From a virus: 44,640 nt of DNA. Of the stretch, positions 1 through 44,640 are shown one piece after another (within the stretch, counting starts at the first letter, position 1; each line of letters opens with the position of its first letter). The stretch covers positions 1-44,640 of IMG/VR virus record IMGVR_UViG_3300045988_093246; one strand, given 5' to 3'. A program made the translations under genes and the position numbers. Below the pieces are notes generated by a model. That model was not told the DNA's origin. It saw only the letters and a program-made list of their open reading frames with translations, and made no database searches.

Positions 1-99
1 ATTTTTTTTTTGGGCTTTCATTTTTTTAATTTACCAATTTAAATTATGCTGATTATAAGGGCATTTTTTTAATTGCATGATTAAATTTTCTAATTGTGA
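1..99. repeat. Terminal direct repeat / circular overlap copy 1 (identical to 44542-44640)
   Basis: Positions 1-99 are identical to 44542-44640 by direct comparison. This indicates either terminal redundancy or a circular assembly overlap, and defines a ~44,541 bp genome unit. Confidence 0.9.
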
Positions 100-775
100 A
101 AATTTTAAAAAAACACTTGACAAGATTGTATACAATAAAAACGTGACAAAAAGTGAAAAACATTAAAAATAGTATGCGCAACCCATTTTATATATATGCG
201 CAATATACTTTATAGCCCATTTTCTACCATTTTATGATTTTGGGAGTAAATTTGGGAGTAAACATTGATATACCAAAACAGCATTCTTTTCATCAACTAT
301 TGCGGTGTTTTAAATAAACATAGTCGAAATACACTTGCGCACTATCATTTATATGTATGCGCATATCATTTTAACATTAATATTTAATTATGCGCTATTT
401 ATTTTATGCTTCTCCCTTGTGTTCCCTTTTTCTTCTCCTTCTGCTGGTGTTCTTCTTCTCCTGTTTGTGTTCCCTTCTCTCTTAGGTGTATAAGCACATA
501 TATAGCCTATAAAGCCAATATAAGCCCTATAAGAGATTATAAGCATATAAGAGGTAGAACAACACCAATATATATAAAAGTCTCTCATAATGGCTATATG
601 GGCCAAATAGAAGCATATCATCATAGAAGGATATAACAGCCCTCTTTATGGTACAACCAATCAATAGCCTTCATAACCTTAACCAATTGATAGCATAGCA
701 AGGATATAGCCCTAAATGGCTGAACAAGGTGTTCTAAGAGACTTCTATAATAGTTAGGCATAATAACACCTGCAT

Positions 776-2868: not shown

Positions 2869-3053
2869 GTTTATTTTCTCCTTCTGCTTTATATAGTCTT
2901 ATTTTAAATACTAGTTTTTTTCTTGTAGTTCATCCTTGATTCTACAATAGTTCATATAGCTTATGATTTTGCTTATCATTTACTTTTCTCATTTTTCTCC
3001 TGTAGGTACAAAACAAAAGGTTTACCGATTGGCAAACCTTAGAATTGATTTTG

Positions 3054-3362
3054 TTAGAATACGAAAGTGTAGCCTTTCCATTTGTTGTTTACTGCTTCAA
3101 TCTCTCTACTCATTTCATTCAGAACTTCTGCAAGTCTCTTCATTGCGTCGGTATCCAAACAAACCAGCTGCATGAATGTAAGTCTAAATTCAACATTGTA
3201 AACTTGATTAATATTTAAGTCTTCGTCCTTAAATCGGATACGTGCTATTCTATGACCAAATCCGTTTTTAAACAAGCACATCTCTAGCTTATCTCTCAAG
3301 TCTTTCTTGATTTCGCTCACTTCTTTAAATGTTATTCTTTTTAATAGTTCTTCGTTTGTCAT
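3054..3362 (-). CDS. Hypothetical protein
   Basis: ORF track 102 aa; preceded by the conserved promoter/leader element. Confidence 0.5.
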   Translation of the reverse strand: MTNEELLKRITFKEVSEIKKDLRDKLEMCLFKNGFGHRIARIRFKDEDLNINQVYNVEFRLTFMQLVCLDTDAMKRLAEVLNEMSREIEAVNNKWKGYTFVF

Positions 3363-3455
3363 AATGTTCTATCCGCCTTTTCTAAGTATTCTGTAAGTTC
3401 GGTTCGCTTACCTCTGTTACAATCACTATTATTGCGCATTTATGACATCTGTAAA
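3363..3455 (-). promoter_or_regulatory. Promoter plus conserved hairpin leader, copy A (family of 3)
   Basis: Minus-strand -35 TTTACA (plus tgtaaa 3450-3455), 17-nt spacer containing TGCGCA, and -10 ATAATA. An upstream A-rich UP-like tract follows. The leader carries a GTAAG...CTTAC inverted repeat and a ...TTAGAAAAGG RBS region, homologous to 6937-7023 and 13738-13859. Confidence 0.5.
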
Positions 3456-3521
3456 GAGTTTTTTAATTTTATTTTAACCAATTCTAATTTTACCTATTTA
3501 TTTTGATTCTCTTTATTTTGT

Positions 3522-3788
3522 TCAGTCTGCCCACATTTCTTTATCTCCTTCTTCTGCTACCTTGTCAATAGCAACGTTTAGAGCATTTCTCAGGTTATAT
3601 AATCCATCTAAATTATCAATGTGTAGCGCACCTTTCATAAAAACTTTTGTACCATCTGCCTTCAACTGCTGGGCTACAGTGAACCCGCCTTTTGAACACT
3701 CTGAAATAACAATGTTTCTGTTTTCTGTAATTTCTGCATTAGATAATTCTGTATAATGCGCTTTTTTATAAACTGCTTTATTTTCCAT
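3522..3788 (-). CDS. Hypothetical protein
   Basis: ORF track 88 aa. Confidence 0.5.
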   Translation of the reverse strand: MENKAVYKKAHYTELSNAEITENRNIVISECSKGGFTVAQQLKADGTKVFMKGALHIDNLDGLYNLRNALNVAIDKVAEEGDKEMWAD

Positions 3789-4169
3789 TTAATTTTCTCC
3801 TTCTTCTGTTTCTTCTTCATCTTCTTCAATTTCCGCCTGCATTAGAATTACAAATTCTTTTGTTTCTTCTGTATTTAACGGCAATAGGTTCAAATTATCC
3901 ATTTCAATATAATCATTTAAACCGTTAAACTTGATTCTGCTTTCACCATCGCCATCAACTTGAATCTGCTTAATTCTGAATGCGCCCAACTTCATCGGAT
4001 GACCGTTTGGAATCTTAGCCTTGATACTTACATCGTTGTTTAGCATCTGCATCAGTTTGATTGTGTTTGTTAGTTCTGAATAGCTAGCCTTGAGTGTTAG
4101 ATTGACTGAACCATTAGCGCTCAGGCTGTGACCGCTATAGCTAACAACCTCTTTAATTTTTAAGTTCAT
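3789..4169 (-). CDS. Hypothetical protein (start trimmed to internal Met MNLKIK...)
   Basis: The ORF-track version (to 4238) overlaps the upstream gene by 68 nt. The internal ATG at 4169 abuts the upstream stop at 4171, which is the more plausible start. Confidence 0.4.
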   Translation of the reverse strand: MNLKIKEVVSYSGHSLSANGSVNLTLKASYSELTNTIKLMQMLNNDVSIKAKIPNGHPMKLGAFRIKQIQVDGDGESRIKFNGLNDYIEMDNLNLLPLNTEETKEFVILMQAEIEEDEEETEEGEN

Positions 4170-4170
4170 T

Positions 4171-4653
4171 TTACTTTGCTGACCTTCTTTCTTTTTTAAA
4201 CTTCTTCTCATTTTCCTCATTAAATCTAATACGTGCACTTGAACTAGATTTAATTTTTCTTCTTGTTTTTACAGTTGTTTCTTCAACGTCTGAAACATCT
4301 AAATCTAAAAAATCATTTTGACTTGTATAAGTTCCTGTTTCAATATATTCTGCTATATCCGTAAGCATATCGGGCTTAACCAATAAATACACCTCGTTAG
4401 ACTGCAAGAACTGAATAGCAAACACGGGCATTTTATGACATACACCCGCATTATAATCTAAAACGTCAATATCTCTTTTATTTAATTTAATGCTTTCCTT
4501 ATCCGTGCTTTTCAACTGACATATAACCGCGTCTGATATACCATCCTCTTTTTCTACCCAACCGCTACCGCTGTTTTTTGTAGGCTTCAAGCCTAAACTT
4601 TCCATAACTTCCGCTTCGTTCTTTCTGTAGAATCTGAATGACCTTTTCATCAT
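4171..4653 (-). CDS. Hypothetical protein; weak nuclease-like motif
   Basis: 160 aa. EDGISD...CQLKST is faintly reminiscent of PD-(D/E)XK/VRR-NUC-type motifs. Not firm. Confidence 0.4.
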   Translation of the reverse strand: MMKRSFRFYRKNEAEVMESLGLKPTKNSGSGWVEKEDGISDAVICQLKSTDKESIKLNKRDIDVLDYNAGVCHKMPVFAIQFLQSNEVYLLVKPDMLTDIAEYIETGTYTSQNDFLDLDVSDVEETTVKTRRKIKSSSSARIRFNEENEKKFKKERRSAK

Positions 4654-4656
4654 AGT

Positions 4657-4998
4657 TTACATACCTCTTATAACGTCTGAAATAAGAAAATCATAATCGC
4701 TTTTGGTTTGTATCTCCTCTTTCAAGTACAAATCAAAATATCTAAGCCCTACCGCACATATAAGGCTTAAAGTCGCTTTAGAATTAGGCATGATATAATT
4801 AAAGTTGTATACTTGACTGTCTGCGTCTCGTGTCCTTTCAATTATAACGCGCATATTCCATTGATTCTCATTTTCTGCACTTCTGAAAAATTCAAACCTC
4901 TGTAGCACTTCTTTTTTCTCATTTCTCAAGTTGTACGTAAAATACATACACGTCTTGTCTAGATACATTCTATTCTCTAAATCTTTCAATGTCAACAT
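4657..4998 (-). CDS. Hypothetical protein
   Basis: ORF track 113 aa. Confidence 0.5.
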   Translation of the reverse strand: MLTLKDLENRMYLDKTCMYFTYNLRNEKKEVLQRFEFFRSAENENQWNMRVIIERTRDADSQVYNFNYIMPNSKATLSLICAVGLRYFDLYLKEEIQTKSDYDFLISDVIRGM

Positions 4999-5000
4999 CT

Positions 5001-5306
5001 TTATTTAATTTTCTCCTTTTTATTTTTATTCTGCATATCCTGCTCATACAGCTTATAAACGTGTTGCGCTATATCTAACAGGTATCTATAATCATAATCC
5101 GTTAGTCTCTGCGGTATGCCGCAACCTGTAGAACCGTCAGAATCATAGAATACATAATAGTAGGTTGATTGTTCGAGTTCCTTTATATCTGCGCTTTTCT
5201 GCATTTCTAACAACTGTATGCATAATTCATCGAAACTTTCATCGCTTATACAGTTTACATTCAATTCATAACATAGCAAGCTATGTATAATGATTCTGCG
5301 TTGCAA
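5001..5306 (-). CDS. Hypothetical protein
   Basis: ORF track 101 aa. Confidence 0.5.
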   Translation of the reverse strand: MQRRIIIHSLLCYELNVNCISDESFDELCIQLLEMQKSADIKELEQSTYYYVFYDSDGSTGCGIPQRLTDYDYRYLLDIAQHVYKLYEQDMQNKNKKEKIK

Positions 5307-5377
5307 GTAGCTTATTTTACACTGTCACACCAATATATGCATGGGGCTTTATTAAAATTAATCATGATACAGACTTA

Positions 5378-5662
5378 CTACCTCTTCGCGCTCTTGCTTG
5401 CTCTAGCTTTTTCACGCTTCAAGCATCCACATGATAGCGTTGTTCCTGCCTGCAGCACACAACGTCTTACAACTACAAAATTACCACATTCACATTGGCA
5501 CAAATAAAAATGACGCTTTCTTAGCAGTGTTCTTTTGCTCTTCAATGAATAATCATCCTTATACCCTGCATAACTGATGACTTTTAATCTGCCAACCTTC
5601 TTACCGATTATATCGTTAGGGTTTATTTTCATCGGATAAATATATTTTCCCTGCGTATACAT
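5378..5662 (-). CDS. Small zinc-ribbon protein (CxCxCGN...SCGC motif)
   Basis: 94 aa. CQCECGNFVVVRRCVLQAGTTLSCGC is a Cys-cluster motif of the kind seen in small phage DNA-binding or HNH-associated proteins. Confidence 0.5.
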   Translation of the reverse strand: MYTQGKYIYPMKINPNDIIGKKVGRLKVISYAGYKDDYSLKSKRTLLRKRHFYLCQCECGNFVVVRRCVLQAGTTLSCGCLKREKARASKSAKR

Positions 5663-5800
5663 TTTGATTTCTCCTTTTCCTTTATATTTAATTTAGCCTA
5701 TTTAAGCGTTCTAAGAGATGTTTTACATTGATTGGTGTATTTGTACCTCTGATATGTCAACACCTCTTATAACGGCTATATTAGGCTTATAACAGCACTT

Positions 5801-5829
5801 AAGAATAAAGGGTTGACTTAGCAACCCTT
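5801..5829 (-). terminator. Hairpin / candidate terminator at end of AAA ATPase gene
   Basis: An 8-bp perfect stem aagggttg (5808-5815) / caaccctt (5822-5829) with loop acttag spans the gene's stop codon. On the minus transcript it is followed by a UUAUUCUU tract. Confidence 0.4.
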
Positions 5830-6936
5830 TTTAACTTCTCGTAAAGCTTTATGGTATCTTGAGTGTCCTACCATTGTAAAGGTATTGATTGTATCTTTGT
5901 CCAATCCTTTTACAACTGCAATCTTCATTGCTTCTTTTAGTTCCATCCCGCTCTTTTCTAACTTCGTTATCATCGTGATACATCTGTATGAGAATGTTGC
6001 TCTTATACCCTTGAAAGTTGCTTCATTTCTTAATTCATGGATAAATTCGACTAACTCTGTATTGTTGTTTGAGATTGATAATTCAATGTTTCTAGAATAA
6101 TCAAATTCGATAATAGCGAAACGGTCCAAAGTTGCTTGGTCTAGAACCATTCGACCTGTATATAGCTCGTCTGCCCCGCTACCTACAGTATTACCTGCTG
6201 AAACAAAATGAACCTTTTCACCAAAATTCAAGCGACCACAAGGAAATTCAAAATAACCATTTGCAATAGAAGCATTTAATAATACTAATACTTCTGGTAT
6301 GCTTGCGTCCATCTCGTCTAAGAAGAAGACCACATCTTTTCCTTCGCTTGCTTCTTTACAAGCCTTAAAGAATTCTGTTTCATGATACTTACCGCCTGCA
6401 TCAATGAATCCTGTTAGCTTGTATTCCTGCTGAACGGAATTACTAAAATAGAAATTCCATCCTAGTTCATTAGCAATCTGTTCAATTGTAAAGTTTTTAC
6501 CACTGCCAGCAGGTCCTGCTAAATAAACAGGTATTGAATTTTTTAAACAGCACTTGATAACATCATATTTTTCATGTTTAGCTTGCTTAGTTTCTTTCTT
6601 CTGTTCTTTAGGCTTTTCAGTTTTAGGCTTCTCAACCTTAACAGCTTTCTTTGCTGTTATTTTTGGTAAGCTGCCATTTTCACTGTTTGCAGTTCTTCTT
6701 TTTCCGCTTGTGCTGTATACCTCTCTGATTTCATAAGGCTTGTAATCTTTCTTGTTAAAATACACGTAACAACCTTCAACAATCACATATCCTTTATAAT
6801 ACTTACGTACATAGGTAAACTGCGCACCTGTCTTTTTAAATTCAATTGTGATTGCAACCTTACCACGCTTTGTAGAAGGTTCAATCTTTAAAACCTTGAA
6901 ATTAACTTTTCCGTTTTCTATTACTTTGTTTTCCAT
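5818..6936 (-). CDS. AAA+ ATPase, MoxR/CbbQ-like (AAA_5) with N-terminal extra domain and Lys-rich linker
   Basis: 372 aa. Walker A LAGPAGSGKN (atypical Asn after GK) and Walker B VVFFLDEMDAS. N-terminal ~75 aa domain followed by a K/E-rich linker. Confidence 0.65.
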   Translation of the reverse strand: MENKVIENGKVNFKVLKIEPSTKRGKVAITIEFKKTGAQFTYVRKYYKGYVIVEGCYVYFNKKDYKPYEIREVYSTSGKRRTANSENGSLPKITAKKAVKVEKPKTEKPKEQKKETKQAKHEKYDVIKCCLKNSIPVYLAGPAGSGKNFTIEQIANELGWNFYFSNSVQQEYKLTGFIDAGGKYHETEFFKACKEASEGKDVVFFLDEMDASIPEVLVLLNASIANGYFEFPCGRLNFGEKVHFVSAGNTVGSGADELYTGRMVLDQATLDRFAIIEFDYSRNIELSISNNNTELVEFIHELRNEATFKGIRATFSYRCITMITKLEKSGMELKEAMKIAVVKGLDKDTINTFTMVGHSRYHKALREVKKGC

Positions 6937-7023
6937 ATTTCTTAACCCCTTTTCTAAAGTACTTGTAAGTTTTGCTTACCTCTCTTACAGATATAATTAT
7001 ATCACATCTGCGCACTTTATCAA
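6937..7023 (-). promoter_or_regulatory. Promoter plus conserved hairpin leader, copy B
   Basis: Minus-strand -35 TTGATA (plus tatcaa 7018-7023), 16-nt spacer containing TGCGCA (7009-7014), and extended -10 TGaTATAAT (plus attata 6996-7001). Leader hairpin GTAAG-caaaa-CTTAC (6966-6980), then TTAGAAAAGGGG RBS and ATG at 6936. Confidence 0.6.
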
Positions 7024-7096
7024 CGGGTTATTTAAAATAATTTAAATAAATTCAATTTTGCGCTTAATTTTCAAAAGGGGCTTTTACACCCCTGTT

Positions 7097-7924
7097 TTAT
7101 AAGTTTTCTAAATCTTCTACGCTTGTGATTTTGTTTACATCTTTTACTATTGTATCAGGTAATAATATTTCATTTTTATCAAGAAATTCTCTAAGCGCTC
7201 CGCCCTTAATGGGATGACCATATTCACAGCTGAAAGCTTCTGTAACTTTTGGGTATACCTCGATAAAACGGAAAAATAAACGTCTTAACATAGATGGATG
7301 AACCATCGGGAATGCTAATTTTGAAACATTCAATTTCTCATTGGCATTCTTTATACGTACCTTCACAATGAATCTTCTTGTTCCTCTGAAAATACCTAAA
7401 ACTATATTCAAATTGCATCTATATCCTTGAGATTCTAAGCGTTTCACAATCTGCATTGCTTTTATGCTTTCATCTTCAATTTGCTTAGTTGTTATATACG
7501 CGCTGTAAGTAACGCTTTTGTTTAGCGTTATTATTTTCTGTTTCACGCTTACCATTTTGGAATTAACCATGTTTTGCGGGCATCCATTCAAATAAAGCGG
7601 TACTATTGCTTGATACCCTTGTACGCTTAAGATTGTTTTTGGTCTTCTGTTGCTTCTTAAGTTCTTATCTGCAACGTTCAGCTTTTGTGTTAACTTGGTA
7701 GACATATCAACCCAACCGTTTTTGAAAAGTTTAACCGCTTCGTCAAAACTGTAGGTCTTTGTAAAACTTTCTGAACCTGTCTCGCTTGAATGACTATGAT
7801 GTTCAAACGTCTTGTTGTAAGGCGTGTTCATAATGTAATCGTAAAACTCTGATAGGCTGTTATACTCGATAACCTCTGTTATACACTTGTCTGTTGCTTT
7901 TTGTTTTAGTCTTGTTACTTTCAT
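7097..7924 (-). CDS. Hypothetical protein (276 aa; start revised from ORF-track 8080 to 7924)
   Basis: An AGGAG SD lies 8 nt upstream of the internal ATG (MKVTRLKQ...). The ORF-track N-terminus runs through a pair of 30-bp direct repeats that look regulatory. The gene immediately precedes the AAA ATPase and may be its partner. Confidence 0.5.
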   Translation of the reverse strand: MKVTRLKQKATDKCITEVIEYNSLSEFYDYIMNTPYNKTFEHHSHSSETGSESFTKTYSFDEAVKLFKNGWVDMSTKLTQKLNVADKNLRSNRRPKTILSVQGYQAIVPLYLNGCPQNMVNSKMVSVKQKIITLNKSVTYSAYITTKQIEDESIKAMQIVKRLESQGYRCNLNIVLGIFRGTRRFIVKVRIKNANEKLNVSKLAFPMVHPSMLRRLFFRFIEVYPKVTEAFSCEYGHPIKGGALREFLDKNEILLPDTIVKDVNKITSVEDLENL

Positions 7925-7934
7925 TTTGTTTTGC

Positions 7935-8010
7935 TCCTCTCTAGCACTCTTTGTGATGTTGTTTTCTAACTTGCAGACTTTGTGGTGTTGTTTTCTAACT
8001 TGCAGACTTA
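7935..8010. repeat. Two tandem ~33-bp direct repeats (tgttgttttctaacttgcagactt) upstream of gene 7097-7924
   Basis: ctttgtgatgttgttttctaacttgcagacttt, then gtggtgttgttttctaacttgcagacttat. Located just upstream of the SD/ATG at 7924. Confidence 0.8.
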
Positions 8011-8362: not shown

Positions 8363-8581
8363 CTACCATCTGCGCTGTCCGTTGTGTCCGCTTTTCTTGC
8401 TTCTGCGCATATCTGCACTAGCAATTCTATTTACATCATAATCAGTAACATCATGGTGTTTCTTGTTGTATTCCTTCTCTTTATGCACTTCTTCAAGTTC
8501 TGCTTTATACGTTGCGCAACTGTCATGACAGCCTAGAAAACGCTTTTTGCAGTCCTTACAGCATTTAATACCCATTGCCAT
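8363..8581 (-). CDS. Small Cys-rich (zinc-binding) protein, candidate regulator
   Basis: 72 aa, N-terminus CCKDCKKRFLGCHDSC. Preceded by a near-consensus promoter and a GGGGG SD, with three TGCGCA boxes upstream. Confidence 0.5.
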   Translation of the reverse strand: MAMGIKCCKDCKKRFLGCHDSCATYKAELEEVHKEKEYNKKHHDVTDYDVNRIASADMRRSKKSGHNGQRRW

Positions 8582-8607
8582 ATTTACACCCCCATTTCTT
8601 TAATTAA

Positions 8608-8735
8608 ATTATATCATAAATTAAATAAAATGCAATACAATAATTAAATTAAAATACATATAAAATAGCACTGCGCAACATATGCGCACATACTAAAACA
8701 GCATAAAATAAAAATTCGCATTGTCTGCGCACTGT
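8608..8735 (-). promoter_or_regulatory. Promoter (TTGCAT-16-TGaTATAAT) with three upstream TGCGCA boxes
   Basis: Minus-strand -10 at plus 8608-8613 and -35 at plus 8630-8635. TGCGCA at 8672-8677, 8683-8688 and 8726-8731. Confidence 0.55.
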
Positions 8736-9359: not shown

Positions 9360-9515
9360 TACTTTGCTCCTTTGCCATTGTTAAACTCCTTTATATTAAA
9401 ATAGCCCATATTTCCATTCTAAGAGACTTTATATATAAACATGATAACTAATACCCAATTTATATAAACACCCCTCATAATTGAAATATGGGCCAAATAA
9501 CAATACTTATATGAT

Positions 9516-13364: not shown

Positions 13365-13440
13365 TATTTAACAATCTCCTTTAACTTTATTTTAAAAGGG
13401 GCGGAAATTAACCACCCCTATTTAATTTTAATTTAACTAT

Positions 13441-13737
13441 TTAATTTTCCATATTGTGACGCTTTTCTAACATTAACATAGATGTTATACCATACAATTC
13501 TAATTCACTATCGCCCTTATGGGTATCTGCATAGCAAGCAAAGATGGCTAATTTATCATCATTGTTCAGCTCACCGCTTTCGATTAACTCGCTTACTTCT
13601 TCGGGCTTAGCGTCCTTTGTCATATTGTAAACATAATCTGCAAAACCTTTGCTGGCGTTGTCTGCCATTTCTTGGGCTACTTTGCATTTTAGTTCATAGC
13701 CCTTCTTGTTTTCAACAAAATCTTTTAACTTGCTCAT
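13441..13737 (-). CDS. Hypothetical acidic protein
   Basis: ORF track 98 aa. Confidence 0.5.
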   Translation of the reverse strand: MSKLKDFVENKKGYELKCKVAQEMADNASKGFADYVYNMTKDAKPEEVSELIESGELNNDDKLAIFACYADTHKGDSELELYGITSMLMLEKRHNMEN

Positions 13738-13859
13738 TTTACATTCTCTTTTATTTTAATTATTTTTTTATCTCCTTTTCTAAGTATTTGTAAGTTTGTT
13801 TGTTTATCTACATATCTCCCTTACAAGTATGATTATATCACTTTTTAGGTGTTTGTCAA
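13738..13859 (-). promoter_or_regulatory. Promoter plus conserved hairpin leader, copy C
   Basis: Minus-strand consensus promoter TTGACA (plus 13854-13859), 16-nt spacer, extended TGaTATAAT (plus 13832-13837). Leader homologous to copies A and B (cttacaagtat..gtaag..., TTAGAAAAGGAG). Confidence 0.6.
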
Positions 13860-42737: not shown

Positions 42738-42766
42738 ATTGTACTACAATCTTATAGACTTGTAAA
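42738..42766 (-). promoter_or_regulatory. Promoter TTTACA-17-TACAAT with A-tract UP element
   Basis: Minus-strand -35 = plus tgtaaa 42761-42766; -10 = plus attgta 42738-42743. An upstream (minus) A-rich tract and a GTGAAGCGATAACAC box (plus 42805-42822) follow. It is ~830 nt upstream of TerS. Confidence 0.5.
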
Positions 42767-42887
42767 GTACTTTTTAATATTTTTTTTAATTTAATAGTGT
42801 TTTACTACGGTGTTATCGCTTCACTCTATTTTTTTAACCTGCCCATGTATGCGCTCTTTTTAAACGATAATTGTGCTATACAAACTT

Positions 42888-43069: not shown

Positions 43070-43208
43070 TTACCTCTTTTCTAAGAAATTTGTTTATCTC
43101 TTTTCTTTATGTCTATAAACTACCATGACCATGTTTTTAATGTTTTGTAAACACTTTTTTTAATTTTTTTTAAGATTGGTGTTGTTGTGTTATCGCCTCA
43201 CATGAGTT

Positions 43209-43487
43209 TTATAATTTGATGTAATAAATACTACCATCGTGTGTTTTAACGATTGTCATATATAAATCATAATCTTTTTTATAAACTACCTTGATTTCTA
43301 CACAAGCACTATAATTGATTCTTAGTGGTTCTCCTTTATAGCTGTCGCTGTCTGATGTTACATCATAACTATCATTTACATAAAAGATATCGCTATTGTT
43401 ATCTAGCATATTCTTAGCGTTAAATTCTGTGTACATAGTCATATCTAATTCAAAACTTTCAATGTCTGTTATCTTTACTGTTTTCAT
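43209..43487 (-). CDS. Hypothetical protein
   Basis: 92 aa. AGAGAGGTAAA SD; downstream of promoter 43551-43579. Confidence 0.5.
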   Translation of the reverse strand: MKTVKITDIESFELDMTMYTEFNAKNMLDNNSDIFYVNDSYDVTSDSDSYKGEPLRINYSACVEIKVVYKKDYDLYMTIVKTHDGSIYYIKL

Positions 43488-43550
43488 ATTCGTTTACCTC
43501 TCTAATCTTAGAATTTTTATTTTTTTATTTCCTCTTTAACTTACAAACTA

Positions 43551-43579
43551 ATATTAACATATAATTTAATATTTGTAAA
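43551..43579 (-). promoter_or_regulatory. Promoter TTTACA-17-TAATAT with UP element and upstream GTGAAGCGACAACAC box
   Basis: Minus-strand -35 = plus tgtaaa 43574-43579; -10 = plus atatta 43551-43556. Box at plus 43623-43640. Confidence 0.5.
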
Positions 43580-43708: not shown

Positions 43709-43942
43709 CTACCACCCAACCAACCAACATAAATCGTCTTGGTTTTTTAAAACATCTTCTAAAGGTTTTAGGTATGTTCTCGTACCGTTAGATGTATAAT
43801 CTGCACCTACCATAACTAAATCCATACCGTTGACAGTAAATACACCACCATTAAAACCTAACTGTTTTAATTCCCAATTAAATGCAATTTTTTCAACTTT
43901 CTTAAATGTAACTTTTCTCGTTTTTCTGTTCTCCTTTAACAC
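43709..43942 (-). CDS. Hypothetical protein (GTG start)
   Basis: 77 aa. Apparent GTG start; 31 nt downstream of the -10 of promoter 43973-44000. Confidence 0.4.
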   Translation of the reverse strand: MLKENRKTRKVTFKKVEKIAFNWELKQLGFNGGVFTVNGMDLVMVGADYTSNGTRTYLKPLEDVLKNQDDLCWLVGW

Positions 43943-43972
43943 TTTTATTTGTTTATCTCTTTTACAACTACT

Positions 43973-44000
43973 ATTATACTGATTTTTAACCGTTTGTAAA
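43973..44000 (-). promoter_or_regulatory. Promoter TTTACA-16-TATAAT
   Basis: Minus-strand -35 = plus tgtaaa 43995-44000; -10 = plus attata 43973-43978. Confidence 0.55.
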
Positions 44001-44039: not shown

Positions 44040-44440
44040 GCATATTGTTTATATACTGCAATAATTATTATATTTGTTAAATACCGTAAATAATATAACT
44101 TATATTGCTGTTAAATACTACTAATGTATATAGCTTTATGTTAAACACTATTAATGTATATAGCTTTATAGGTTAAACATAAGATGTTATCTTAGTAAGA
44201 TGTTATCTTAACAAGATTTTATCTTAGTAAGATGTTATCTTATTTACGTTAAATACTATTAACGTATATAGCTTTACGTTAAATACTATTAATGTATATA
44301 ACTTTATAGGTTAAATACTATTAACGTATATAACTATTAATGTATATAACTTTATGTTAAATACTTTATAGGTTAAATACTTTATAGGTTAAACATAAGA
44401 TTTTATCTTAGTAAGATGTTATCTTAGTAAGATGTTATCT
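44040..44440. repeat. Iteron/palindrome array: ~9 copies of the gttaaatactattaaYgtatataRctttat unit interleaved with two clusters (4+3) of palindrome TAAGATnnnATCTTA
   Basis: Read directly. The palindrome ataagatgttatcttag occurs at 44179-44245 (4 copies, some as ataagattttatctta) and 44395-44445 (3 copies). Direct ~29-bp repeats lie at 44110-44175 and 44268-44390. Confidence 0.85.
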
Positions 44441-44441
44441 T

Positions 44442-44458
44442 ATTTATGTGAAGCGAAC
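44442..44458. other. GC-rich hairpin GAAGCG-aac-CGCTTC adjacent to the iteron array
   Basis: A perfect 6-bp stem in tgaagcgaaccgcttcg, followed by a relatively GC-rich 60-bp block. Confidence 0.6.
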
Positions 44459-44498: not shown

Positions 44499-44528
44499 AT
44501 AGTACCACTGCGCATTCCATTTTGTCAA
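44499..44528 (-). promoter_or_regulatory. Right-end promoter TTGACA-18-TACTAT with long upstream A-tract (UP element) and TGCGCA in spacer
   Basis: Minus-strand -35 = plus tgtcaa 44523-44528; -10 = plus atagta 44499-44504; spacer contains TGCGCA (44509-44514). Plus-strand T8 and T10 runs at 44533-44552 act as an A-tract upstream of the -35 on the minus strand. Fires leftward from next to the terminal repeat. Confidence 0.5.
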
Positions 44529-44541
44529 CTACTTTTTTTTG

Positions 44542-44640
44542 ATTTTTTTTTTGGGCTTTCATTTTTTTAATTTACCAATTTAAATTATGCTGATTATAAG
44601 GGCATTTTTTTAATTGCATGATTAAATTTTCTAATTGTGA
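44542..44640. repeat. Terminal direct repeat / circular overlap copy 2 (identical to 1-99)
   Basis: Exact identity to window positions 1-99. Confidence 0.9.

What the first reader, a model, noticed from the sequence alone, without database searches (positions are those of the whole stretch)
3363..3455. Three copies of a conserved ~90-bp promoter-plus-hairpin leader (3363-3455, 6937-7023, 13738-13859)
Each copy comprises a near-consensus promoter, a leader containing a GTAAG-loop-CTTAC (TGTAAG...CTTACA) inverted repeat, and ACTTAGAAAAGG(A/G)G adjacent to the start codon. They precede three different operons: 3362, the AAA ATPase, and 13737. The hairpin abuts the RBS, suggesting shared post-transcriptional control (translation or attenuation) or a common protein-binding site.
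Basis: seen in the sequence. Interest (0 to 1): 0.55.

Follow-up and report, generated by a model that had tools for sequence, protein, structure and literature searches.

The report
Repeated phage promoter and leader cassette
A gut-phage genome carries three related copies of one promoter plus 5' leader; they are real and conserved, but the small hairpin in them neither blocks the ribosome site nor stops transcription, so this looks like an ordinary shared expression cassette.

Summary
The three copies exist, on the minus strand, at the stated coordinates. They are homologous well beyond generic promoter and RBS signals: a specific leader pattern hits exactly these 3 sites, against 0 in shuffles. 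The transcribed leader is the best-conserved part. Both c1 and c2 recur in sister phages, and c3 recurs in others, giving 17 distinct versions. In the more diverged comparisons they are more conserved than third codon positions.

The "hairpin" is UGUAAG...CUUACA. It starts at the predicted transcript 5' end and is weak (-3.7 to -5.4 kcal/mol, not better than shuffles for c1 and c2). Its loop varies from 14 to 25 nt, and 17 sequences show no compensatory change. It has no U-tract, and the SD stays about 80% unpaired, so attenuation and SD occlusion are rejected.

The two halves also occur apart. TTGTAA(G/A) follows the -10 at two other promoters that lack a partner arm. CTTAG just 5' of the SD marks promoter-proximal genes across the whole phage family.

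Best reading (about 0.4): a paralogous host-sigma-A promoter plus 5'UTR cassette, with a 5'-terminal stem-loop and a very strong RBS, resembling Gram-positive 5' mRNA stabilisers. A site for a trans-acting factor, including antitermination, is not excluded, because each first gene ends at a strong terminator. Interest is modest.

The parts
3428..3455 (-). c1 core promoter: -35 TTTACA (3455-3450), 16-nt spacer, -10 AATAAT (3433-3428). An A/T-rich UP-like stretch lies upstream to about 3500.
   Evidence: 10/12 match. (A/T-rich upstream). Sister phages have TATAAT.
3392..3421 (-). c1 leader hairpin region: outer 5' arm TGTAAC 3421-3416, inner 5' arm GTAAG 3411-3407, 3' arm CTTACA 3397-3392.
3363..3387 (-). 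c1 RBS block: ACTTAGAAAAGG (3387-3376), then CGGATAGAACATT up to the ATG at 3362 of the 102-aa gene (3054-3362).
3007..3040 (-). Intrinsic terminator directly after the 102-aa gene driven by c1.
   Evidence: -13.0 kcal/mol, z -4.7, U-tract.
6996..7023 (-). c2 core promoter: -35 TTGATA, 16-nt spacer containing TGCGCA (7014-7009), TG-extended -10 TATAAT (7001-6996).
6964..6989 (-). c2 leader hairpin region: outer arm TGTAAG 6989-6984, inner arm GTAAG 6979-6975, 3' arm CTTACA 6969-6964.
6937..6960 (-). c2 RBS block: ACTTTAGAAAAGG (6960-6948), then GGTTAAGAAAT up to the ATG at 6936 of the AAA+ (MoxR/CbbQ-like) ATPase gene (5818-6936).
5801..5830 (-). Intrinsic terminator overlapping the end of the ATPase gene.
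   Evidence: -11.3 kcal/mol, z -3.0.
7076..7093 (-). Terminator hairpin just upstream of the c2 promoter. It insulates c2 from the upstream unit.
   Evidence: Conserved in relatives.
13832..13859 (-). c3 core promoter: TTGACA-16-TGaTATAAT, 12/12.
13788..13826 (-). c3 leader hairpin: 5' arm TTGTAAG 13826-13820, 25-nt loop, 3' arm CTTACAA 13794-13788.
13738..13785 (-). c3 RBS block: ACTTAGAAAAGGAG (13785-13772), followed by a 34-nt remnant left by deletion of a 75-aa gene, up to the ATG at 13737 of the 98-aa gene.
13394..13418 (-). Intrinsic terminator after the 98-aa gene. The methyltransferase gene starts 30 nt further on, with no promoter in between.
   Evidence: -16.2 kcal/mol, z -3.9.
43485..43579 (-). 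Partial paralogue: promoter TTTACA-17-TAATAT followed by TTGTAAG (43546-43540), with a CTAAG/CTTAG-type RBS context but no CTTACA arm.
   Evidence: Relatives read TTGTAAGTTAAAGAGGTAAATAAATTCTTAGAAAAGAGG.
43925..44000 (-). Partial paralogue: promoter TTTACA-16-TATAAT followed by TTGTAAAAGAGATAAACAAA, with no 3' arm.

Best explanation
The three elements are paralogous copies of one expression cassette of a virulent-looking siphophage of gut Clostridia. Each has an A/T-rich UP-like region, a host sigma-A-type promoter, and a 45-55-nt 5' UTR. The UTR begins at or within 1-2 nt of (U)GUAAG.

That 5' end can pair with CUUACA 14-25 nt downstream, which sequesters the very 5' end of the mRNA. The UTR ends in an unpaired, extended purine-rich Shine-Dalgarno block, CUUAGAAAAGGNG.

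Most likely function: give three separate transcription units the same timing and high output. The 5'-terminal stem-loop and the tightly ribosome-binding RBS would protect the transcript's 5' end from 5'-end-dependent decay (RNase J1 or RNase Y type). This is how known Gram-positive 5' stabilisers work.

Shown: homology, conservation, position, the predicted fold, SD accessibility, and the absence of a terminator tail.
Inferred: the transcription start site, the host sigma factor, and the stabiliser function.
For: (1) The copies are specific and non-random: 3 hits against 0 in shuffles. The leader is the most conserved segment.

(2) Purifying selection. c1 and c2 are both kept in six to seven sister genomes, and c3 in others. 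Promoter plus leader identity to the window is 0.89-0.94 where third codon positions of the adjacent gene are 0.72-0.82 (L306, L308, L314). The two closest relatives show no excess.

(3) TGTAAG starts exactly 6 nt after the -10 hexamer in all copies. The 5' arm is therefore the predicted transcript 5' end.

(4) The partition function gives the CUUAC arm 0.84-1.0 paired (apart from the first C in c1), the first 4-5 nt 0.76-0.99 paired in c1 and c3 (0.35-0.64 in c2), and the SD only 0.16-0.25 paired.

(5) The arms are kept while the loop changes in length (14, 20 and 16-25 nt) and in sequence.

(6) Three of the five substitutions in the stem give G.U in the sense RNA.

(7) In sister clades the orthologous ATPase leader often has a hairpin of different sequence starting 0-3 nt from the predicted +1. 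This holds for L008, L009, L012, L016, L019 and L020, six of 14 distinct leaders.

[quoted passage not shown] Its reference list also includes the aprE leader 5' stem-loop study.

(9) The RBS block is complementary to the 16S 3' end.
Against: The hairpin is weak: -3.7 to -5.4 kcal/mol. For c1 and c2 it is not better than shuffled sequence.

There is no compensatory covariation in 17 sequences. The 3' arm is invariant, whereas the 5' arm carries two disruptive changes: TGTAAC in window c1 and TGCAAG in L303 c2. This pattern fits sequence-specific constraint as well as it fits pairing.

TTGTAA(G/A) also follows the -10 at promoters with no complementary arm. It does so even in an unrelated temperate phage. 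The 5' arm may therefore be conserved for promoter reasons.

About half of the sister-clade leaders are unstructured.

No transcription start or RNA half-life data exist.
Confidence: 0.4

Rival explanations
1. The leader is a cis-acting RNA site for a trans-acting factor, encoded by the phage or the host. One version is a nut/put-like processive antitermination signal that lets RNA polymerase read through the terminator after the first gene. The other is a translational operator shared by the three mRNAs, in the manner of RegA.
For: Each of the three first genes is followed by a strong intrinsic terminator (-11 to -16 kcal/mol, z -3 to -4.7). At c3, the methyltransferase, RecA and following genes start 30 nt after it with no promoter, so read-through is needed.

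AACUUAC and UACUUAGAAAAGG are invariant in sequence, while the 5' arm and the loop vary. That pattern fits sequence-specific recognition.

The layout is promoter-proximal and multi-copy, as for nutL/nutR and putL/putR (own knowledge).
Against: There is no Rfam match at gathering threshold or at E<=10.

Loop length and sequence are not conserved, whereas a boxB-type site is read through its loop.

The element is far smaller than put.

No candidate antiterminator or RNA-binding protein was recognised among the 40 window ORFs scanned.

Terminators are frequent throughout this genome, so 3 of 3 is weak evidence.

The resemblance of UACUUAGAAAAG to a Gram-positive boxA (GUUCUUUGAAAAC) rests on memory and could not be confirmed. 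It is also confounded by the SD purine run.
Confidence: 0.2
2. The hairpin is incidental. The cassette is simply promoter plus RBS. TTGTAAG is a conserved initial-transcribed or promoter-proximal sequence of one promoter class. CTTACA is a tandem near-duplicate of the family-wide CTTAGA motif that precedes the SD. Their complementarity has no function.
For: TTGTAA(G/A) without a partner occurs at P43973 and P43551, at their orthologues, and in temperate phages L309 and L312.

CTTAG before the SD is a hallmark of promoter-proximal starts across the family: 37/112 against 45/1605, odds ratio 17. Most of those leaders have no complementary 5' TAAG.

ACTTACA and ACTTAGA lie 10-11 nt apart.

There is no covariation, and the z-scores are near 0.
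Against: A perfect 6-7-nt complement to the transcript's first bases within 40 nt is unlikely by chance. My own rough estimate is 1-2%.

It is retained in all 17 versions of three long-diverged paralogues, while the intervening loop changes.

Sister clades place other hairpins at the same spot.
Confidence: 0.2
3. The inverted repeat is a double-stranded DNA operator at +1 to +45. A phage regulator binds GTAAG/CTTAC half-sites and switches the three promoters off or on together.
For: c2 shows a symmetric array, GTAAG-4-GTAAG-5-CTTAC-5-CTTTAG. A position overlapping +1 is typical of repressors (own knowledge).

Separately, the palindrome TGCGCA is enriched: 27 sites against 9.3 expected. It sits in the -35/-10 spacer of c2, of window c1 and of P44499. 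DNA-level co-regulation therefore probably exists in this phage, though through another motif.
Against: The distance between arms differs among copies and orthologues (14, 16, 20, 21 and 25 nt) and is not in helical phase.

TTGTAAG is not enriched in the genome (10 against 10.4).

Three observed A-to-G changes keep RNA G.U pairing but would break DNA symmetry.

The inner arm is absent in c3.
Confidence: 0.1
4. The conserved cassette serves mainly as a homology patch at module boundaries. It promotes gene shuffling by recombination, as the promoter-stem-loop cassettes of T4-type phages do. This reading does not exclude the others.
For: L314 keeps the c1 leader at 92% identity in front of a gene only 53% identical in protein.

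L156 and L157 have an extra 75-aa gene directly behind the c3 leader.

In L088, homology to the window breaks inside the c1 promoter.

L158 and L159 carry deletions starting in or beside c3.
Against: The breakpoints are not all inside the cassette, and this whole region is variable. The c3 deletion used an AGATAAAAA microhomology, not cassette-to-cassette recombination. No exchange between c1, c2 and c3 is seen: their loops stay distinct in every genome.
Confidence: 0.1

Closest known systems
Gram-positive 5' mRNA stabilisers: aprE leader (5' stem-loop plus RBS), cryIIIA STAB-SD, phage SP82 polypurine stabiliser, ermC leader
   Same: A structure at the extreme 5' end plus a very strong SD in the 5' UTR. 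In c3 of the window the SD is no longer followed by a start codon, as in STAB-SD. The review PMC3997798 names 5'-end occlusion and a strong SD as the common determinants.
   Different: The stem is only 5-7 A/U-rich pairs with a large loop. It is no more stable than shuffled sequence for c1 and c2. No half-life data exist. The element comes in three paralogous copies with conserved sequence, which the known stabilisers do not.
Lambda nut (boxA + boxB) and HK022 put promoter-proximal antitermination sites
   Same: Multi-copy RNA elements with a small hairpin just downstream of early promoters, ahead of terminators that must be read through.
   Different: The loop is not conserved, whereas the boxB loop is the recognition surface. 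There is no verified boxA. The element is far smaller than put's two stem-loops. No N-like or Q-like protein was recognised. There is no Rfam hit.
PeSL (promoter-early stem-loop) regulatory cassettes of T4-type phages (own knowledge, not checked in the literature here)
   Same: A short conserved promoter-plus-stem-loop cassette repeated in front of different small early gene units, found at the boundaries of swapped or lost genes.
   Different: In PeSL the stem-loop is a terminator-like structure upstream of the promoter. Here the hairpin lies downstream, in the 5' UTR. Only c2 has a terminator directly upstream (7093-7076).
T7 gene 10 leader (epsilon enhancer plus SD: UUAACUUUAAGAAGGAGAUAUA; own knowledge)
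   Same: Sequence look-alike of the 3' block: ACUUUAGAAAAGG and ACUUAGAAAAGGAGAUA. Both are U/A-rich elements directly 5' of a strong SD on a highly expressed phage mRNA.
   Different: Unrelated phage and host. Here the CUUAG motif is complementary to the rrn sequence just beyond the canonical 16S 3' end, not to 16S nt 458-466.

Membership tests
Intrinsic-terminator attenuator (leader terminator) | G+C-rich stem immediately followed by a U-tract | tested here: not met
   The stem is A/U-rich with 5-7 bp. It is followed by AGAAUAC, AAGUAC or AAAUAC, not by U's. The terminator scan lists nothing here.
SD-sequestering translational operator or RNA thermometer | The SD or start codon is base-paired in the regulatory hairpin | tested here: not met
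   Mean pairing probability of the SD is 0.16-0.25. The 3' arm ends 13-14 nt before the SD core.
Any curated RNA family (Rfam 15) | Covariance-model match | tested here: not met
   No hit at gathering score over the whole window. Over 3300-7100 at E<=10 there were only chance eukaryotic lncRNA and snoRNA hits, away from the elements.
Conserved structured RNA element (generic) | Compensatory base changes supporting the helix | tested here: not met
   17 distinct sequences: 97.6% paired, 0 pairs with two-sided change, 1 G.U, 2 disruptions. The 8-sequence set gave the same result.
Gram-positive 5'-terminal stem-loop stabiliser | Hairpin within a few nt of the mRNA 5' end | tested here: inconclusive
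   TGTAAG begins 6 nt after the -10 in all copies, so the stem would start at +1 or +2. The start site is predicted, not measured.
Gram-positive 5'-terminal stem-loop stabiliser | Strong ribosome binding site in the leader | tested here: met
   AGAAAAGG(A/G/C)G gives -9.2 to -11.2 kcal/mol duplexes with a canonical Gram-positive 16S tail. The SD is unpaired.
Gram-positive 5'-terminal stem-loop stabiliser | Measured increase of mRNA half-life that depends on the element | not testable with these tools
   Needs rifampicin-chase or reporter experiments.
Lambda-type nut site | boxB hairpin with a conserved loop, plus a boxA sequence | tested here: not met
   Loops differ in length (14-25 nt) and in sequence. 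The boxA resemblance was recalled from memory and is unverified.
HK022-type put site | Two adjacent stem-loops of about 70 nt acting on RNA polymerase | tested here: not met
   Only one weak helix is predicted in a 45-55-nt leader.
Dimeric-repressor operator (DNA) | Inverted half-sites at fixed spacing | tested here: not met
   Spacing between arms is 14, 16, 20, 21 or 25 nt. The heptamer is not enriched.
Sigma-70/sigma-A-type promoter | -35 and -10 hexamers at 16-18 nt spacing, optionally with an extended -10 TG | tested here: met
   12/12, 11/12 and 10/12 matches. TG is present in c2 and c3. Conserved in relatives. Activity was not measured.

The most novel reading that the evidence does not exclude
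The leader is a previously undescribed cis-acting regulatory RNA, specific to this clade of gut Clostridia phages and recognised by sequence (AACUUAC...UACUUAGAAAAGG). One version is a minimal processive-antitermination signal. It would let polymerase from these three promoters pass the strong terminator that follows each first gene. The other version is the shared operator of a phage translational regulator.

A second, broader reading concerns the family-wide CUUAG-plus-SD signature. It may show that promoter-proximal phage mRNAs pair with a 16S rRNA 3' tail longer than the canonical one (...CCUCCUUUCUAAGG).
Probability: 0.15. Interest if true: 0.6.

Novelty: new member of a known kind. Interest (0 to 1): 0.3.

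Why it matters
Repeated promoter-leader cassettes are how many phages coordinate gene classes, so the finding is not surprising as such.

It does give a compact, portable expression module for poorly studied gut Clostridia phages. The module has a strong promoter, a 5'-end hairpin and a very strong RBS. The copies and orthologues supply a natural set of variants for testing 5'-end protection.

If the leader proved to be an antitermination or operator site, it would be a new small regulatory RNA class in Firmicutes phages.

The side observation on CTTAG could bear on how first cistrons recruit ribosomes in these hosts. Across the phage family CTTAG precedes the SD at promoter-proximal genes. 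It is complementary to the rrn sequence just past the canonical 16S 3' end.

Tried and rejected
- Rfam, at gathering score and at permissive E-value: nothing relevant.
- tRNA/tmRNA scan: none.
- Megablast of 20 kb against GenBank phages: no match.
- First IMG/VR pattern scan: too loose, more than 119 mostly chance hits.
- Tighter 3'-block pattern. It returned only the close clade in IMG/VR and in JGI metagenomes. In GTDB genomes it gave 3 chance hits and no prophage or host.
- Inner stem GGTAAG/CTTAC as the conserved helix. Rejected: it is absent in c3, and G25 changes to A in L303 and L305.
- The 102-aa and 98-aa first genes as paralogues. Rejected: BLASTP E = 0.92.
- A general rule that CTTAG pairs with a 5' TAAG. 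Rejected: 22 of the 40 CTTAG leaders have no such partner.
- P44499 leader as a fourth hairpin copy. It shares GTAAG-N4-GTAAG-CGA but folds differently.
- D5/D8 repeats as terminators or structured RNA. Rejected: z is about 0.
- boxA resemblance. The Firmicutes consensus could not be verified in the held literature.
- Leader peptide. No start codon follows the 5'-proximal GAGG/GGAG, except a window-specific AUG-UAG in c3 (read).

Full report
CONTEXT. The window has identical 99-nt ends (1-99 = 44542-44640). This is most simply an assembly overlap of a complete circular phage genome of about 44.5 kb. All plausible genes are on the minus strand.

Read on the minus strand from coordinate 44640 downward, the order is:
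- a repeat-rich region and several small genes with promoters (44.5-42 kb);
- terminase small and large subunits (41.9-39.9 kb);
- structural, tail and holin genes, down to about 20.5 kb;
- a replication block with primase, SSB-like protein and PolIII-alpha (20.4-13.9 kb);
- c3, then a 98-aa gene, a methyltransferase and a RecA-like gene;
- Cas4-like nuclease and RuvC-like genes;
- DUF7192;
- c2, then an AAA+ (MoxR/CbbQ-like) ATPase, an HNH gene and others;
- c1, then a 102-aa gene and others.

No integrase turned up among the 40 ORFs scanned. No GenBank phage matches the first 20 kb at the DNA level. By ATPase protein, the nearest cultured relatives are Clostridium phages CS266P1-P4, at 65% identity over two thirds of the protein. 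IMG/VR holds a large family: 36 ATPase loci and at least 148 RecA loci.

On the minus strand the three regions align from the UP-like A/T stretch to the RBS. A leader-specific pattern hits exactly these three sites, against none in 100 shuffles. The promoters score 12/12, 11/12 and 10/12 against the sigma-70-type consensus. The transcribed leader is the most similar segment, at 70-80% against 59-69% for the core promoter.

Four corrections apply:
- c1 has GGCGG.
- c2 has ACTTTAG.
- c3's conserved SD is 36 nt from the ATG. In L156 and L157 a 75-aa gene follows the leader. That gene has been deleted in the window between AGATAAAAA microhomologies.
- The 3' arm lies 13-14 nt upstream of the SD core.

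ANATOMY. TGTAAG (TGTAAC in c1) starts exactly 6 nt after the -10 hexamer in every copy. This is where sigma-A-type transcription is expected to begin; that start site is an inference. The complementary CTTACA lies 14 nt (c2), 20 nt (c1) or 25 nt (c3) downstream. In addition, c1 and c2 have an inner GGTAAG arm. Then follows (A/G)(A/G)(A/T)ACTT(T)AGAAAAGG.

Predicted RNA folds are weak, at -3.7 to -5.4 kcal/mol. Their z-scores against dinucleotide shuffles are -0.24 (c1), +0.36 (c2) and -1.5 to -2.3 (c3). In the Boltzmann ensemble the CUUAC arm is 0.84-1.0 paired, apart from the first C in c1. The first nucleotides are 0.76-0.99 paired in c1 and c3, and 0.35-0.64 in c2, where the two 5' arms compete. 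The SD stays open at 0.16-0.25. No U-tract follows the stem. The element is therefore neither an attenuator nor an SD-sequestering switch.

CONSERVATION. I searched IMG/VR, JGI metagenomes and GTDB genomes with the 3' block. I also fetched contigs that encode homologues of the 102-aa protein. These searches show the leader only in this phage clade. They yield 17 distinct versions: 6 of c1, 7 of c2 and 4 of c3. A seventh c1 variant, in L291, was seen but not included.

c1 and c2 coexist in every sister genome that covers both positions, and they keep their own loop sequences. They are therefore old paralogues, not recent copies.

Promoter plus leader identity to the window is 0.89-0.94 where third codon positions of the neighbouring gene are 0.72-0.82 (L306, L308, L314). 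This indicates purifying selection. The two closest relatives show no excess.

Within the leader, the invariant blocks are AACTTAC, TACTT(T)AGAAAAGG and GAG.TA. The loop and the discriminator region vary.

Counting the outer helix on the 17 sequences gives 97.6% paired cells and no two-sided change. There is one G.U (L288, A to G) and two disruptions (window c1 G to C; L303 c2 T to C). Two further A-to-G changes at the base after CTTAC give U.G (L306/L307 c2 and L308 c1). The stem is thus neither proven nor refuted by covariation. The asymmetry, with the 3' arm invariant and the 5' arm variable, fits sequence-level constraint at least as well.

THE TWO HALVES OCCUR SEPARATELY. TTGTAA(G/A) directly after the -10 is also found at the promoters ending at 43973 and 43551, and at their orthologues, with no CTTACA partner. 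It is found again in front of the 102-aa homologue in unrelated temperate phages (L309, L312).

The RBS context CTTAG + SD is a family-wide signature of promoter-proximal genes. It occurs at 37 of 112 unique promoter-proximal starts against 45 of 1605 other starts: odds ratio 17, Fisher p about 1e-24. That p-value is optimistic, because the sequences are related. Of the 40 such leaders, 22 have no complementary 5' TAAG.

(T)CCTTAGA..GGAGG is the complement of the Gram-positive rrn sequence GGATCACCTCCTTTCTAAGGA at the 16S 3' end/ITS junction. Published primers confirm that sequence. Duplex calculations show that leader RBSs would gain 5-8 kcal/mol if the 16S tail reached ...CUAAGGA, while internal RBSs would gain 0-0.5. 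Whether the host's mature 16S is that long is unknown. The canonical Bacillus end, from my own knowledge, is ...CCUCCUUUCU(A).

FAMILY-LEVEL STRUCTURE. Across sister clades, promoters are strong, with a TG-extended -10 and an A/T-rich upstream region. Leaders are A/C-rich. About a quarter of unique leaders fold significantly better than shuffles.

For the orthologous ATPase leader, 6 of 14 distinct versions have a hairpin starting 0-3 nt from the predicted +1, built from other sequences. Examples are GUAAGGUAC..GCCUAC, GAUUGAG..CUCAAUC, GUUAAGGG..CCCAUAAC and GCUCA..UGAGC. The remaining versions are unstructured. This supports recurrent, non-essential selection for a 5'-terminal hairpin at this position.

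SURROUNDINGS. Each cassette drives one gene that ends at a strong intrinsic terminator: 13394-13418, 5801-5830 and 3007-3040. These have free energies of -16.2, -11.3 and -13.0 kcal/mol and z-scores of -3.9, -3.0 and -4.7. At c3 the next genes start 30 nt later without a promoter. Some read-through must therefore occur, which keeps an antitermination role open. However, terminators are common throughout the genome.

Several gene-content differences among relatives begin at or next to the cassettes:
- L314 has the c1 leader at 92% identity in front of a homologue only 53% identical in protein.
- L156 and L157 carry an extra gene behind c3.
- L088 breaks homology with the window inside the c1 promoter.
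- L158 and L159 carry deletions in or beside c3.

CONCLUSION.

The best-supported model is a shared expression module. Its 5'-terminal stem-loop and very strong RBS resemble Gram-positive 5' mRNA stabilisers (PMC3997798). I give this about 0.4.

Three readings remain open. The first is recognition by a trans-acting factor, including antitermination (about 0.2). The second is an incidental hairpin formed from two independently conserved motifs (about 0.2). The third is a DNA operator (about 0.1). A role as a recombination patch is compatible with any of these.

Nothing here is far from known phage regulatory architecture, so interest is modest.

Noticed in passing
Family-wide: window 3376-3387, 6948-6960, 13774-13785, about 43090-43110; loci L001-L036, L156-L235, L303-L314: CTTAG/CTTTAG within 14 nt 5' of the SD core marks promoter-proximal genes: 37/112 against 45/1605 other starts. 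Together with the SD it is complementary to the rrn sequence CCTCCTTTCTAAGG at the 16S 3' end/ITS junction. It may reflect extended pairing with a longer 16S tail or another leader-specific function.
   Followed up: partly
window 175-363, 8404-8731, 3433-3438, 7009-7014, 44509-44514 and others: The palindrome TGCGCA occurs 27 times against 9.3 +/- 3.0 expected. Pairs lie 22 bp apart (175/197, 336/358) or 11 bp apart (8672/8683). Single sites sit inside the -35/-10 spacer of c2, window c1 and the promoter ending at 44499, and in several promoters of relatives. This is a candidate operator for a phage regulator, or a methylation/restriction-related site.
   Followed up: partly
window 44096-44442: A dense repeat region. 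It holds arrays of the 16-nt palindromic unit TAAGATAACATCTTAC, interleaved with GTATTTAACCTATAAAG and TTATATACATTAATAG repeats, downstream of a strong promoter (44528-44499). The promoter's leader folds at -18.5 kcal/mol, z -2.6. It looks like an origin or operator array.
   Followed up: no
window 565-609, 1188-1244, 5735-5791, 9443-9499: Four copies of a 45-57-nt repeat, reading ...GGTGTTTATATA...GGTACAA... on the minus strand. At least three of them lie just after operon ends or terminators. It is not a stable RNA structure (z about 0) and not a sigma-70-type promoter. It may be a promoter for another polymerase specificity, or a protein-binding site.
   Followed up: partly
window promoters with -10 ending at 8010, 11086, 33466 and 43551, and one near 42740-42790: A second promoter family (repeat D3): A/T-rich UP element, TTTACAAG, and a TG-preceded -10 such as TGTGGTACTAT in the reference copy. 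There are five copies of about 53 nt. Their leaders differ from c1-c3.
   Followed up: partly
window 7925-8009 (minus strand), leader of the DUF7192 gene: The leader contains a direct tandem repeat, AAGTCTGCAAGTTAGAAAACAACAYCACAA x2. Relatives have one copy.
   Followed up: no
window 13738-13772; L157 2832-3059: A 75-aa gene present behind the c3 leader in relatives is deleted in the window between AGATAAAAA microhomologies. The deletion leaves an orphan strong SD and an AUG-UAA mini-ORF just before the 98-aa gene.
   Followed up: yes
L309-L313 (contigs of 49-55 kb): Homologues of the 102-aa protein (62-79% identity) also sit in temperate phages with a different gene layout. L309-L312 carry a serine recombinase and an HTH repressor. 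In L309 and L312 the gene lies behind a different promoter that again has TTGTAAA right after the -10.
   Followed up: partly
window 1-99 and 44542-44640: An exact 99-nt terminal direct repeat. It is most likely an assembly overlap of a circular or terminally redundant genome.
   Followed up: no
L008, L011, L012 (about 4521, 6669 and 6588 in locus coordinates): Sister phages have a long, strongly structured leader: CAAGAGGTGG...GTCCTGAGTTCAGGA... at -20 to -28 kcal/mol, with z down to -7. It lies downstream of another promoter and was not examined.
   Followed up: no
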